A DNA stretch of 64,000 nt from assembly GCA_964016885.1 (NCBI GenBank), contig OZ024751.1, forward strand, positions 27,962,001 through 28,026,000, in the 5' to 3' direction. Shown here piece by piece: positions 15,621-59,294 of the stretch; position 1 is the stretch's first letter, and each line of letters starts with the position of its first letter. Below the pieces are notes generated by a model, which worked only from the letters and a program-made list of their open reading frames with translations, was not told the origin of the DNA and made no database searches. This DNA is from Eledone cirrhosa. Taxonomy: Eukaryota. Both the position numbers and the translations under genes were made by a program.

Positions 15621-16210
15621 ATAAAATGAGGTAAATATCTCTCTGGGTACTAAGTACCCATAGAGATATATAGTGTGTACCCATAGAGATATATAATTGA
15701 TGTTCAATGGTACTAATTCGAGATACCAGAACTATAAAAATTTAGAAGAGCAGAACAAACAAACATTAAACAATTCTTTAAAAAAATTAAAAATATTATT
15801 TCAATATTTACCCGTTCATAATGCTATTACCGGCGGTTTCGCTTTACAAAAGGTTAGAGATTCGGAGAATTTCTAACGGAAAAGTAAAGTTCATCAGATA
15901 GCTATTTCCACACAGTAGGAACTAGTCCCACAATCTGCAAATATATTGCCAACTACCAGCTAGTATGAGTAAGGCCGTTAAAATGACCCAGACATGAACT
16001 GGCCAGTAGAAAAAGTGGGAAATATTACAGACACGTTGATGGCTATTCTGCTAAAAAAAATAGCAGTAAGCAGCAACGAATTTTTTTCTCAACATAGATT
16101 GGAGAATTCATAAAATGAGGTAAATATCTCTTTGAGTACTAAGTACCCATAGAGATATATAGTGTGTCTATATTATAATTGGTGTTCAATAGTACTAATT
16201 CGAGATACCA
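15621..16210 (-). mobile_element. Hammerhead-bearing unit (~489 bp period, ~100 bp terminal direct repeat) within (TA)n
   Basis: ATAAAATGAGGTAAATATCTCT...CGAGATACCA at 15621-15728 and 16110-16210. Confidence 0.75.
15823..15902 (-). ncRNA. Type I hammerhead ribozyme with 50-nt stem II
   Basis: Minus: GCTAT-CTGATGA-ACTTTAC...GTTAGAAATTC tcc GAATCTCTAAC...GTAAAGC-GAAAC-CGCCG-GTA^ATAGC. A-C mismatch at 10.1/11.1. Confidence 0.75.
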
Positions 16211-16276
16211 TATATATATATATATATATATATATACAGATTCGAGCAAACATCACGAGCGCTCTATCTCAAAATT

Positions 16277-16315
16277 GTTTTTGAAAAGCATTAGAAATTC
16301 GCAACCGGTAAAAAC
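16277..16315 (+). ncRNA. Decayed U3-A8 hammerhead (paralog of 6416)
   Basis: GTTT-TTGAAAA-GCAT-tagaa-ATTC-GCAAC-CG-GTA-AAAAC. The flanks align with 6377-6525; GAAA is mutated. Confidence 0.5.
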
Positions 16316-18387
16316 TTAAAACTAAAACTGAATACTAACCAATACTTATTACTAATTTTTACTTATTCCTAATTAAACTATTTTTTACTGGGAAAAATTT
16401 GTCAGCATTTTCTTTTCCTTTTACTAATATATATACATATATATATATATATATACCTCCCCCCTCTCTCTCTCTATATATATATATATATGTGTGTGTG
16501 TGTGTGTGTGTGTGTCTATGCCTCCAATTGTGTTCTAAATTAAGTTCGACTATCTATATCGTATCATTTATATTATAACGCCTTAAGCCTAGATTTATTG
16601 AGCACTTTGAGCTAGATTCCTGCTTTTAAGATACATTTTTGATGTATTTTGAAAATGAATATATTCATGTGCATGTCATTGAATATATTCATATAATCAT
16701 GAATACACGCATAAGTATATATATACACATACAGACATTTAATGCATACATACATGCATACACACAAGCATACATACCTACATACATATATACATACCTA
16801 CATACATACCTACATACATATATACATACACACACACACATACATACATATGGACAGTCATCCCCAAAATCCACTGCTCAAAGCACCAGAACTGAACTAT
16901 TTCTCTCGTTCACTACAGTCGCATCTTGAGAGAGAGAGAGAGAGAGGGAGAGGGGGGGGGGAGAAAAAGAGAAGGGATAGAAACGGGAGAGAGAGGTGGG
17001 AGAGAGAGAAGTGAGAGAGAGAGAGGGAGAGTGAGTGAGAGAGAGGGAAGGGAGAGAGAGAGAGAGAGAAGGGAGAGAGAAAAGTGAGATAGAGGGAGAG
17101 AGTAAAAGAGAGAAGGGAGAGAGAAAGACGGGAGAGAGAGAAGTGGGAGAGAGAGAGAGAGAGAGAAGTGGGAGAGAGAGAGAGAGAGAGCAAGATGGAG
17201 GGAGAGAGAGATAGAATGAGATTAAGTGAGAGAAGTGAAATAGATAGAGGGAGAGAGAGAGAGAGAAGGGAAAGAGAGATGGGAGAGAGAGAGATATGGG
17301 AGAGAGAGAGATATGGGAGAGAGAGAGAGAGAGAGAGAGATATGGGAGAGAGAGAAGTGAGAGAGAGAGGGAAAGAGAAACGGAGAGATAGAGATAGAGA
17401 TAAATAGACTGAGAGATAGATGGATGGAGAGAGATATATATATAGAGAGAGATAGAGAGAGAGAGAGCCCTGTACTCATCCCACATCTTCTGCCAGAGAA
17501 CAGGTGTTTAAACAATGCTCTGTTCACAGCCAACGACTGGGGACAGTGGCATAAAGGGTCAGTGTGGGTAGGGGGAGGGGGTGAACGTAGGTTGGCTGAA
17601 GTGTCTATTGATTAGCTTCAGTTGGTCAACCAACTTATCTGGTCTGTTTGCTAAGAGGGTTTGTTTCTTTCGCAATACCAAGATGTACGCACGTAGACAT
17701 GTGTGTGTGTGTATATATATATATAAATATACATATATATATATATATATACAGATATATATATATATATATCTGTATATATATATACATATATATATAC
17801 AGATATATATATATATATATATATATATATATATATCTGTACATATATATGTATATATGTGATCGTATATATGTGTATGTATATATGTGTGTGTATATAT
17901 ATATATATATATATATATATATATATATATATATATATATATATATGTATTTACACATATATATATATGTATGTATATATATATATATATATATAAATAT
18001 TTATATATATAAATATTTATATATATGTATATATGTATGTATATATTTCATATGCATGTGTAACGGGGAGAGAGAGAAAGGAAAGATAGTTAAATAGACA
18101 GACACACAAATATAGATAGGCATTGTTCCTATGTATGTATGTATGTATGTATGTATGTATGTAGGTATGTATGTATGTATGTATGTATGTATGTAGGTAT
18201 GTATGTATGTATGTATGTATGTATGTATGTATGTATGTATGTATGTGTGTGTGAGTGTGTTTGTGCGTGTGTGTGTGTGTGTGTCTAAAGAAACCTGACC
18301 GACATTTATTGAGAAGCAGATATACGCATGCGAAGATATACAGATTACCAATGCGCATATACAAAAAAGAAAGAAACATACATACAT

Positions 18388-55890: not shown

Positions 55891-58423
55891 TTACTTCCAT
55901 TACCAAATTACTCCATTGTTACCAGAACACCGAAACTATTGTCCCTGAGTGATGACAGCATGTTCCTTTCTCCAAGGTTACATAAACACCTTTATTACAC
56001 CACTCCACACCACTCCACGGCCCTTCAAGCTACCATCACCGCCACCAACACCACCACCACCCACGACACCGTCCACGACACCGCCACACTACTCCATCAT
56101 CCTGTCATCCCACCCACACTCTACCACCGTCGTCTCACGCTTAGTTTTACCACATGTACTAAACACCTTTCTTATAACCTGTCCTCACCCCTCCCACCAC
56201 CACACCAACCTACCACCACCACCACCTCACCACTCCTCCTATCCCCACCCCTGCTTCCATTCCCTCCCCCAAACCTTACTCTTGGTCTTACTTCGTATAC
56301 TAAATACACAAACATAAACACACACTGGAACTCAAAACACGTATATATATATATATATATATATATATATATATGTGTGTATATATATATATATATATAT
56401 ATATATATGTGTATATATATATATATATATATATATATATATATCTATATATATATATATATATATATATCTGTGTGTATATATATATATATATATATAT
56501 ATATGTGTGTATATATATATATATATATATATATATGTGTGTATATATATATATATATGTATATATATATATATATATATATATATATATATATATATAT
56601 ATATATATATACATATATCCATATGTACATACATATATCCATATATCCATATATACATATATATATATATATATATTTATATATATATATATATATGTAT
56701 ATATATATACATAAATATATACACACACATATATATATATATATATATATATATATATATATATGTATGTATATATATATATACATAAATATATATGTAT
56801 ATATATATATGTATGTATATATATATATATATATATATATATATATATATATATATATATATGTATGTATATATATATATAGATACATACACACAACAGG
56901 GGAAAGACACAGTAAATTTGGAGTAGCACAAACAAAGCAGGAAAACAAGCAAGGCCCCATTAAAGATCACCTGCTAGCTCCCATTTTTAACCATCTTGTT
57001 CAGTGTGGACCCTTTATTTTAACCTTTAACCCCTAAAACTGGAATAATCAAACAAGCAGACGACATATTAGTCGCTAAGAAACAAAAACAACGATGGCGG
57101 GGAGGGGCTGGAGGAATAGGAGGAGGAAGAAGGGGAGGAGGAGAAGGAAGAGGGGTAAGGAAAGGAATGGGAGGAGGGGAGGAGGGGGAGAAAGAGGGGG
57201 AGAAGCTGGAGGAGAAAGCGGAGGAGAACGAGAAGGGGAGGAGAAAGATGGGGAGAAGGAGGAGGAGAAGGGGGGAAGAGAAGGAGGAGAGAAGAAGGAG
57301 GGGAGAGGAGAAAGAGGGGAGAAGAAGTAGGAGAAGGAGGAGGAGGAGAAAACTGGAGAAAAGTCTTTCTTTAAGTTCCATTTTCTACCATTGTTTCACT
57401 CTCCCCTCTCTTTCTATCAAAGTTTCTCTCTCTCTCTCTCTCTCTCTCTCTCTCTCTCTCTCTCCCTCTCCCTCTCTTTCACTCCTTCTGTTTCTTTAAG
57501 TTCTCTCTCTTTCATCTTCCTTGTTTTTGACACAATCTCCCTCTCCCTCTACTTCTCTACCTCTCTACCACTCTTTCTCTACCTCTCTCTACTTCTCTCG
57601 CTACCTCTCTCTCTCTCTACTTCTCTACCCCTCTCTTTCTCTCTCTACCTCTACCTCTACCTCTACCACGTACAGACACATATACACACAGACACACACA
57701 CACATACAGACACACACACACACACATACACAAGGGACACCTCTCCGCCAGGAGTACCCCAGACGTTCGATAGGACTGACTACCCTGGGGTACTGATTGA
57801 ACTTTTAGACCAAAATCTGACATTTCTATAAGACATGGAATTACATAAGATATAATACACCACCACCACCACCACCACCATCACCACCACCACCACCACC
57901 ACCACCACCACCATCACCACCACCACCACCACCACCACCACAATCACCACCCCCGCTATCACCACCACCACCAATACCACCCCATCATCGTCATGATTAC
58001 TCCTCTTCCTCCTCCTCATTATCATCATCATTATTTTCATCCTCATACTACTACCACTACTACTACTACTACTAACACCACCACCGCCACACAAAACACG
58101 TGTACACACATATACATACGCAAACACACATACACACACATATAAAAGACACGCGTACACCACACACACATACACACACACACACACACACACACACACA
58201 GCATGTAGAAGAAAGAAACAAGATAAGGTGTTTTTCAGGTCAGTAAGAACACAGAAATAGTGTTTAACAGCTGCCGAGTGCACAACACTTCATATATATA
58301 TATATATACACACACACACACATATATATATATATATATATATATATATATATATATATATATATATATATATATATATATATTAAGAGAGTAAAACAAA
58401 GAATCCTTTAATACATCAAAAGT

Positions 58424-58477
58424 TTTTATTAGCCGACAATGTTTCGTCCTATTAAGGACTCATCAGGGCAATCAAAA
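58424..58477 (-). ncRNA. Canonical minimal type I hammerhead ribozyme
   Basis: Minus: TTTTGATTGCC-CTGATGA-GTCC-ttaata-GGAC-GAAAC-ATT-GTC^GGCTAATAAAA. Confidence 0.85.
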
Positions 58478-59168
58478 CGACAAGAAGTAATATCGGCAGA
58501 TACAAGCCGGAAGCTCCGAAGAATATGGAGTGTACATACACTAAAGTCTTGCAAAAATATATAATAAAAATAAAAATAAAAATAAAAATAATTTTTATAA
58601 TACGAAGAGGGTGTTTAACTCCAACACGCTCCAGTATTTTAATCCTTACACACATATATATACATATATATATATATATATATATATATATATATATATA
58701 TATATATATATATATATATATATATATATATATATATATATACATACATACATACATATATATATATATATATATATATATATATATATATATATATATA
58801 TATATATATATATATATATATATATATATATATATATATACATACATATATATATATACATATATATATATATATATATATATATAGTAATAATAATAAA
58901 TTTGAAGACTAAAATCCAAAGAGGGCTTGATAAGGATTTATCCTTATCAAATATATAAGAACCGTAGAGCAATATATATATATATATATATAACAAAAGG
59001 AACGAAGATCGCTGGTTTAAATACACCGCTCTCCGGCCAGCATCTAGCCCACTCAAGGAATCTGGCGAATTGCAGTTATGCAACTGCAATCAACTGTTCC
59101 AAATGCACACATTTAGTTTACTGTAGACGGTTGGCTGTGTATTGTTAGAGATTGGTGTAAATATCTCT

Positions 59169-59294
59169 TTCCTGGACGATCGTTTCTGTGTAACATAACT
59201 TTACAAATGCAGATTTTACTCCTGCAATGTTCAGAAAATGAGGTAAAATCAGCGGATAATTACGTAATTGGGCTATTACACTCTTCAGTAGGAA
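59169..59294 (-). ncRNA. Type I hammerhead ribozyme with 95-nt branched stem II
   Basis: Minus: TTCCTA-CTGAAGA-GTGTAATA-[AATTACGTAATT; GATTTTAC/GTAAAATC]-TGTTACAC-A-GAAAC-GATC-GTC^CAGGAA. Confidence 0.75.

What the first reader, a model, noticed from the sequence alone, without database searches (positions are those of the whole stretch)
15823..59294. Expanded stem II recurs in six hammerheads with dissimilar inserts
Seen: stem II domains of 50 nt (15823), 79 nt (22189), 63 nt (25428), 81 nt (39727), 96 nt (46507) and 95 nt (59169), with no obvious shared sequence and most with internal hairpins. Several close stem II with U-A or place A before GAAA instead of the usual G-C. Inference: a distinct 'long stem II' hammerhead subclass maintained by structure rather than sequence.
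Basis: partly seen in the sequence, partly recalled or inferred. Interest (0 to 1): 0.75.

Follow-up and report, generated by a model that had tools for sequence, protein, structure and literature searches.

The report
Long-armed hammerheads of Penelope-type retroelements
Six self-cutting-RNA (hammerhead) motifs each belong to a different high-copy jumping-gene family and carry an unusually long, folded side arm, kept by paired mutations between sister families, that likely braces or tunes the cutting core; a published search pattern would miss them, and cutting itself is untested.

Summary
All six motifs are there with the stated stem II lengths (50, 79, 63, 81, 96, 95 nt); my scan gives 6 versus 0.05 in shuffles. 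Each belongs to a separate repeat family (245-2,389 first-look candidates), and the insert is a family trait, not copy-specific. Three families sit 3' of Hydra-type Penelope endonuclease ORFs; three are non-coding 480-765-nt head-to-tail units (retrozyme-like). Sister families keep the fold through compensatory changes (11 of 14 changed pairs kept at 34% identity), so 'structure rather than sequence' holds. 'One subclass, no shared sequence' does not. Two pairs of inserts are homologous, lengths form a 13-115-nt continuum, and there are at least three designs: internal loop plus hairpin, three-way junction (both with a predicted pseudoknot to the stem I tail), and a Hydra-linked rod with a recurring internal loop. 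Non-G-C closures are already tabulated for Penelope hammerheads, and one plant element has a 34-nt loop. Cleavage is untested; copy ends do not pile up at the cut. The scan noted similar units before, in this genome and in other DNA. New variant of a known kind.

The parts
15621..16208 (-). Family F15: non-coding ~482-nt unit, about 1.2 head-to-tail copies, with (TA)n at its 3' end (retrozyme-like)
   Evidence: sister family is 67% identical over the unit and forms identical 457-bp arrays
15823..15910 (-). Type I hammerhead F15: core 15897-15891, stem II domain 15890-15841 (6 bp, internal loop, distal hairpin), predicted cut after 15828; predicted pseudoknot 15910-15905 with about 15882-15877
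21955..22633 (-). Family F22: 3' end of a Hydra-type Penelope-like element
   Evidence: Hydra-type endonuclease upstream on the same strand in 11 of 30 loci; extent
22189..22297 (-). Hammerhead F22: core 22290-22284, domain 22283-22205 (10-bp stem closed by U-A, asymmetric loop, GANU/NAGC internal loop about 22253-22228), predicted cut after 22193; this copy has lost the 3' strand of stem I
25295..25685 (.). Family F25: 3' end of a Hydra-type element (25295-25544, minus) with an inverted 5'-truncated arm (25579-25685, plus)
   Evidence: endonuclease sequence upstream on the same strand in 2 of 3 extended loci
25430..25521 (-). Hammerhead F25: core 25516-25510, domain 25509-25447, C.A closure, predicted cut after 25435
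39603..39911 (.). Family F39: young (about 98% identical) 3' end of a Hydra-type element (39709-39911, plus) with an inverted arm (39603-39708, minus)
   Evidence: own endonuclease upstream on the same strand in 8 of 30 loci
39727..39845 (+). Hammerhead F39: core 39736-39742, domain 39743-39823 with a weakly paired base, GANU/NAGC internal loop about 39774-39799, predicted cut after 39835
46255..46681 (-). Family F46: 5'-truncated copy of a non-coding ~765-nt head-to-tail unit
46507..46635 (-). Hammerhead F46: core 46625-46619, domain 46618-46523 (9-bp stem, GCCC linker, two hairpins = three-way junction), predicted cut after 46511; predicted GGGC/GCCC pseudoknot (tail mutated in this copy)
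58982..59382 (-). Family F59: 5'-truncated copy of a non-coding ~680-nt head-to-tail unit, sister of F46
59170..59300 (-). Hammerhead F59: core 59288-59282, domain 59281-59187, same junction layout as F46, predicted cut after 59175

Best explanation
These are type I hammerhead motifs near the 3' ends of six separate Penelope-type repeat families (three linked to Hydra-type coding elements, three non-coding tandem units), whose loop II has grown into a 50-96-nt folded domain that is likely kept by selection on the RNA and is predicted to brace a dimer-dependent self-cleaving core. Shown: the families, their contexts, the fixed insert per family, and compensatory change between sister families. 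Inferred: (1) tandem transcripts pair their palindromic stem III sequences and cleave as dimers, which in the non-coding units would release monomers that can circularise and be copied into (TA)n by a Penelope reverse transcriptase; (2) in F15, F46 and F59 the bases just after the first 7-9 bp of stem II pair with the tail 5' of stem I, a pseudoknot that supplies the stem I-stem II contact; (3) the distal hairpins lie beyond that contact, so they can vary as long as they stay paired; (4) in the Hydra-linked families a recurring internal loop is a candidate protein-binding site.
For: High-copy families. Hydra-type endonuclease with CxCx5C upstream of F39 (8/30), F22 (11/30) and F25 (2/3 extended loci) (clade marks). 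Head-to-tail non-coding units for F15/F46/F59, longest ATG ORF 34-54 aa; F15's sister forms identical 457-bp arrays of up to 8 listed copies. Changed pairs kept: F15 vs 523-nt family 11/14 at 34% identity (null 5.5, p 0.001), F15 vs sister 7/8 (p 0.003), F46 vs F59 13/20 and 13/19 (p 0.024, 0.003). In alignment A1, 13 of 36 pairs change on both sides; 88.8% of cells pair versus 31-43% when slid. Five fully compensated stem II types occur in the 523-nt family. Pseudoknot: 5 of 19 long families reach -3 kcal/mol or better with their own tail versus 6% of non-cognate pairings, permutation p 8e-5, with compensatory tail/loop sequences between families. Stem III self-duplexes are -5.8 to -10.2 kcal/mol for the six.
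Against: No cleavage, expression or circle data. 5' ends of genomic copies do not pile up at the cut: 1 of 30 F46 loci picked on their 3' part starts within 5 nt of it and two more at +10 and +15; 0 of 69 match starts within 3 nt in the 523-nt family. F39 spread recently with a poorly paired stem II base (A.A closure in 29/29), where another sample's contigs read a paired base, so a full stem II is not needed for spread. F39 vs its relative (2/8 kept, p 0.42) and F22 vs its relative (5/15, p 0.44) show no significant compensation on sequence-only alignments. In A1 the number of pairs with two-sided change does not exceed the shuffle (350/500), the second hairpin is only 78% paired, and changes reflect about three lineages. 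The pseudoknot window and the internal-loop motif were defined after inspection. The autonomous partner of F15/F46/F59 is inferred only from (TA)n ends and a shared short 3' motif (5 of 6 families; absent in F15).
Confidence: 0.68

Rival explanations
1. The long domain is passive: fold-back or slippage insertions into loop II were tolerated and are kept paired only so that they do not misfold the core or the highly self-paired circular RNA; there is no special contact or ligand.
For: Length continuum 13-115 nt and unrelated distal hairpins; a 20-nt relative shares F39's 3' flank; inverted arms are common in these insertions; retrozyme circles are reported as highly self-paired (PMC7229834).
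Against: Fixed register of the loop strand and its complement in the tail across families with different sequences; colinear 96-nt and 50-nt domains at 50% and 34% identity; the internal-loop motif in 7 of 19 long families, five of them Hydra-linked, at shuffle rates of 0.12-0.35 each.
Confidence: 0.2
2. The domain mainly recruits the Penelope reverse transcriptase or gates cleavage until protein binds; self-cleavage of naked RNA is weak or dispensable.
For: The Anolis Penelope hammerhead cleaves only with its protein, and cleavage was not needed for insertion in vitro (PMC11167929, passages); no pile-up of ends at the cut; F39 spread with a weak stem II base; the recurring internal loop lies 14-32 nt into the domain.
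Against: Core, stem I and palindromic stem III are intact in 22-29 of 30 central copies per family, and stem I covaries between F46 and F59; no binding data.
Confidence: 0.25
3. Chance co-occurrence of core motifs around unrelated hairpins, or copy-specific insertions into short hammerheads.
For: Long gaps raise chance matches: none of the 21 metagenome pattern matches was convincing, 1 barely met the stem thresholds.
Against: 6 versus 0.05 in shuffles; family-wide fixed inserts; covariation.
Confidence: 0.02

Closest known systems
Minimal type I hammerheads of metazoan Penelope-like elements (Cervera & de la Pena 2014, PMC4209133; parts 1-2 of 4, passages, supplement passages seen)
   Same: Type I layout, 4-5-bp stem I, palindromic short stem III, position near the element's 3' end, inverted partial copies.
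   Different: Their consensus keeps G10.1-C11.1, and the descriptor allows stem II of 3-7 bp with a loop of 3-10 nt; here the domain is 50-96 nt and five of six family majorities lack the G-C closure.
Hydra-clade PLE hammerheads (Craig et al. 2021, PMC8557442; passages, section 11, supplement part 2 of 59 seen)
   Same: CxCx5C linker, C-terminal endonuclease, (TA)n targets; U.U and C.A closures are in their table; Selaginella PLE-X1_sMoe has a 9-bp stem II with a 34-nt loop.
   Different: All Hydra rows in that table, including the octopus family, have loops of 3-10 nt; no branched domain, pseudoknot or recurring internal loop appears in what I saw.
Metazoan non-LTR retrozymes (PMC7229834, passages and section 14; bioRxiv 10.64898/2026.07.22.740005, parts 1-2 of 5)
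   Same: Non-coding tandem units with one type I hammerhead, proposed to derive from PLEs; family lengths of 51-972 bp reported.
   Different: The passages read describe no long stem II; circles and expression were shown there and not here.
Pseudoknotted hammerheads (Perreault et al. 2011, PMC3088659; passages and section 6)
   Same: A base-paired stem I-stem II contact in all three types; a U.U closure of stem II is reported among natural core variants.
   Different: Here the pseudoknot strand lies in an internal loop or junction that carries one or two further hairpins.

Membership tests
Type I hammerhead ribozyme | CUGANGA and GAAA cores with an NUH triplet, ends in stem I | tested here: met
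   All six window copies; intact in 22-29 of 30 central copies per family
Type I hammerhead ribozyme | Three helices around the core | tested here: met
   the F22 window copy has lost most of stem I, the family keeps it
Type I hammerhead ribozyme | G10.1-C11.1 pair closing stem II (usual, not universal) | tested here: not met
   Met only in F46 (28/29); majorities A.C, U-A, C.A, A.A, C.A in the others; such variants are in print
Type I hammerhead ribozyme | Match to an Rfam hammerhead model | tested here: not met
   No hammerhead hit at gathering threshold, also none for the short ones in the window
Type I hammerhead ribozyme | Self-cleavage at the NUH site | not testable with these tools
   No RNA data; copy ends do not mark the site
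Hydra-clade PLE (F22, F25, F39) | C-terminal GIY-YIG-type endonuclease preceded by CxCx5C, same strand, upstream of the hammerhead | tested here: met
   (F25 across a frameshift); read by eye against section 11 of PMC8557442; Pfam gave no GIY-YIG or RT hit
Hydra-clade PLE (F22, F25, F39) | RWK and DKT-type motifs, RT phylogeny | tested here: inconclusive
   Motifs seen in a neighbouring full ORF that carries a 69-nt long-stem hammerhead (L184); no full ORF or tree for the three families themselves
Hydra-clade PLE (F22, F25, F39) | (TA)n targets and inverted 5'-truncated copies | tested here: met
Non-LTR retrozyme (F15, F46, F59) | Non-coding head-to-tail units, one hammerhead per unit | tested here: met
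   Partial tandems in 8/30, 2/30 and 3/30 loci at unit-length spacing; ORFs <=54 aa; full arrays seen for F15's sister
Non-LTR retrozyme (F15, F46, F59) | Expression as circular RNA | not testable with these tools
   No RNA run was listed (queried with F39)

The most novel reading that the evidence does not exclude
Penelope-type elements in this lineage have turned hammerhead loop II into a modular platform. A pseudoknot fixes the catalytic geometry, and an appended hairpin, three-way junction or conserved internal loop binds the telomerase-related Penelope reverse transcriptase, so that cutting and circle formation are switched by protein binding. Tens of thousands of such motifs per genome would have escaped loop-capped searches, also in elements now listed as lacking hammerheads.
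Probability: 0.2. Interest if true: 0.8.

Novelty: new variant of a known kind. Interest (0 to 1): 0.5.

Why it matters
The published min-HHR descriptor caps stem II at 7 bp plus a 10-nt loop, so these motifs are invisible to it. In 400 kb of evenly placed genomic samples long motifs (7) were as common as short ones (6), roughly 16 per Mb after shuffle correction, or some 5x10^4 in this 3.0-Gb genome (rough). Hammerhead and retrozyme counts in such genomes may be well under the truth. The sister families give natural compensatory series and a very young, identical-copy family with which to test how stem I-stem II contacts, non-G-C closures and protein help govern Penelope hammerheads, whose role is still open.

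Tried and rejected
Rfam: no hammerhead. Pfam on four PLE ORF pieces: nothing significant. Run search with the F39 3' region: no RNA holder listed; two contig runs of one sample were laid on it, which cannot show ends or expression. Metagenome scan for the Hydra-type 3' signature: 21 matches, 20 fail the stem tests and 1 is marginal, so no support from other organisms. End pile-up at the cut, a lead from note e1-8664355: not seen (small samples, BLAST ends). Constrained folding: the hammerhead fold lies 2.1-4.6 kcal/mol above the ensemble in the six families and 2.8-3.8 in three short controls, so it does not discriminate. A 5'-tail pseudoknot in the Hydra-linked families: not found (0 to -1.8 kcal/mol). 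ORFs beside F15, F46 and F59: none belonging to the element. A by-sequence look-up of earlier notes with F15: nothing. No covariance model was built; pair counts were used instead. Lunse et al. 2017 (PMC5785218) and Arkhipova et al. 2017 (PMC5850863) were not held, and supplement file 1 of PMC4209133 was not searched, so a long-stem-II variant described there would have been missed.
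Full report
Observation. All six motifs are present with the stated domain lengths. A type I descriptor (written after seeing them; stem I >=4 of 5 pairs, stem II >=6 of 8, GAAAC..GUH) returns exactly these six long hits and five short ones in the window; 200 shuffles of dinucleotides within 200-nt blocks give 0.05 long hits. In 40 evenly placed 10-kb stretches of the genome it gives 7 long, 3 intermediate and 6 short hits against 0.47, 0.07 and 0.03 in 30 shuffles, so the window is about five times denser than average. Rfam sees no hammerhead here. The host is an animal with a 3.0-Gb genome; that it is an octopus-like cephalopod is my inference from recall, not a call result.

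Each is a repeat family. Searches of the own genome gave 2,271 (F46, site 46507), 245 (F59), 2,389 (F39), 752 (F15), 2,094 (F22) and 2,243 (F25) first-look candidates, of which 40 were scored and 30 fetched each. The window copies are decayed: F22 lacks 11 nt with the 3' strand of stem I, and F46 and F59 have mutated 5' tails.

Context. F39 and F22 lie about 0.8 kb 3' of an endonuclease ORF end with a CxCx5C linker on the same strand (8 of 30 and 11 of 30 loci). F25 has none within 1.5 kb (0 of 30) but does about 1.8 kb upstream in L186, with a matching fragment in L187 (2 of 3 extended loci). These marks, (TA)n targets and inverted truncated arms match the Hydra clade of Penelope-like elements as described in PMC8557442 section 11; no tree was built. 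F15 (~482 nt), F46 (~765) and F59 (~680) are non-coding units found as partial head-to-tail tandems. F15 is 67% identical over its length to a family that forms 100%-identical 457-bp arrays, which fits a non-LTR retrozyme. Five of six families (not F15) carry a short shared motif just beyond their first 3' end, a weak tie of F46 and F59 to the same machinery.

Not one subclass. Clustering 372 hits from the loci held at that point gave 34 clusters with modal domains of 13 to 115 nt, 19 of them >=40 nt; many are single hits and a few may be chance. Three designs cover the six. Design A (F15, its sister, a 523-nt family with 1,653 exact pattern matches, and L176): about 7 bp, a pyrimidine-rich internal loop, one hairpin, ~50 nt. 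Design B (F46, F59, and by eye L246): 8-9 bp, a GCC(C) linker and two hairpins. Design C (F22, F25, F39, L177, L184, L034, L080): a rod with an asymmetric loop and a recurring internal loop, GANU opposite NAGC, present in 7 of 19 long families and absent from the other 12, at shuffle rates of 0.12-0.35 each (motif defined after inspection, families related). Of 15 pairs among the six inserts, two align (F46/F59 z 4.6; F22/F39 z 4.1) and 13 do not.

Structure over sequence. On sequence-only alignments of family majorities, changed pairs are kept in 11 of 14 (F15 vs 523-nt family, 34% identity, 8 two-sided; null 5.5, p 0.001), 7 of 8 (F15 vs sister, p 0.003) and 13 of 20 or 13 of 19 (F46 vs F59, p 0.024 and 0.003), but only 2 of 8 and 5 of 15 for two design C pairs (not significant). 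In alignment A1 (30 of 60 eligible design B copies) 13 of 36 pairs change on both sides and 88.8% of cells pair versus 31-43% for slid structures; the count of such pairs does not beat the shuffle, the second hairpin is poorly shared, and the changes stem from about three lineages. The 523-nt family shows five fully compensated stem II types among 32 distinct copies, 4 of them imperfect (copies were selected for the loop motif).

Pseudoknot. In designs A and B the bases right after stem II are complementary to the tail 5' of stem I: GGAAA/UUUCC, GAGAA/UUCUC, GGGC/GCCC, weakly AAAGA/UCUUU. Five of 19 long families reach -3 kcal/mol or better with their own tail versus 6% of non-cognate pairings; permutation p 8e-5 (window chosen after seeing three families). 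Between F15 and the 523-nt family two positions of this pairing change on both sides. Pseudoknots are a known way to align stems I and II (PMC3088659 section 6). Design C lacks it.

Mechanism. Most likely the palindromic stem III pairs between tandem copies (self-duplex -5.8 to -10.2 kcal/mol), as reported for Penelope hammerheads (PMC4209133; PMC6765202 passages). The first 7-10 bp of stem II and its adjoining loop would supply the contact with stem I, and the distal part would be free to vary if paired. All of this is inferred. Against a simple picture: copy ends do not gather at the cut, which does not reproduce the lead from note e1-8664355 in my small samples; F39 spread with a poorly paired stem II base while contigs of another sample read a paired one; and the Anolis Penelope hammerhead needs its protein and was dispensable for insertion in vitro (PMC11167929 passages). 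No RNA evidence was obtainable.

What is known. Non-G-C closures are in print: U.U in many Hydra rows and C.A in a Chara element (PMC8557442 File S2), U.U in PMC3088659 and in axolotl (PMC7229834). One Selaginella element has a 34-nt loop II, flagged as non-canonical. 'Long helix II' in PMC13725137 means 6-8 bp (passages). Seven full-text searches showed no paper describing 50-115-nt stem II domains as a recurrent feature of animal Penelope or retrozyme hammerheads; two relevant papers were not held. PMC10085705 and PMC6962438 were seen as passages and add nothing on this. The published descriptor cannot find these motifs. Earlier notes of this scan describe similar ~490-520-nt units here and in other genomes; they are unchecked AI notes, not support.

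Verdict. Real, structure-conserved elaborations of loop II in Penelope-type hammerheads, in several designs rather than one subclass; activity untested. New variant of a known kind; interest 0.5.

Noticed in passing
window 42486-42600 (-): U4 snRNA match above the Rfam threshold (57 bits) with a decayed 3' part; probably a pseudogene.
   Followed up: no
window 2239+, 6420+, 2703-, 11909-, 58466-: Five short-stem-II type I hammerheads; 6420 and 11909 have the U3-A8 core variant, 2703 a U.U closure. Similar decayed motifs at 23154+ and 33485+.
   Followed up: partly
L093:2490-2630 and L258-L277: Sister of F15 forms 100%-identical 457-bp tandem arrays (up to 8 listed copies) on several chromosomes: a very recent burst and the best test substrate.
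   Followed up: partly
L184:8827-8915: A near-complete Hydra-type ORF ends in a hammerhead with a U3-A8 core, U.U closure and a 69-nt stem II domain.
   Followed up: partly
families F39, F22, F25, F15: Each family appears to have two preferred 3' ends (F39 +58 and +229, F25 +53 and +132, F22 about +60 and +240, F15 about +89 and +204 from the cut), a longer 'tail' than the 30-40 bp reported for PLEs.
   Followed up: partly
L188:6338-6470, L105:2160-2290: Still longer rod-like stem II domains of 105-115 nt (folding z to -7.4) with the same stem III palindrome as F46 and F59; host element not identified.
   Followed up: no
window 59423-59639 (-): A second, 3'-terminal F46 fragment lies right beside the F59 copy: these elements cluster in the same (TA)n tracts.
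   Followed up: no
window about 50800-51900 and 19500-19700 (-): Two related stretches that look like non-LTR reverse-transcriptase coding sequence (by eye; family not tested).
   Followed up: no
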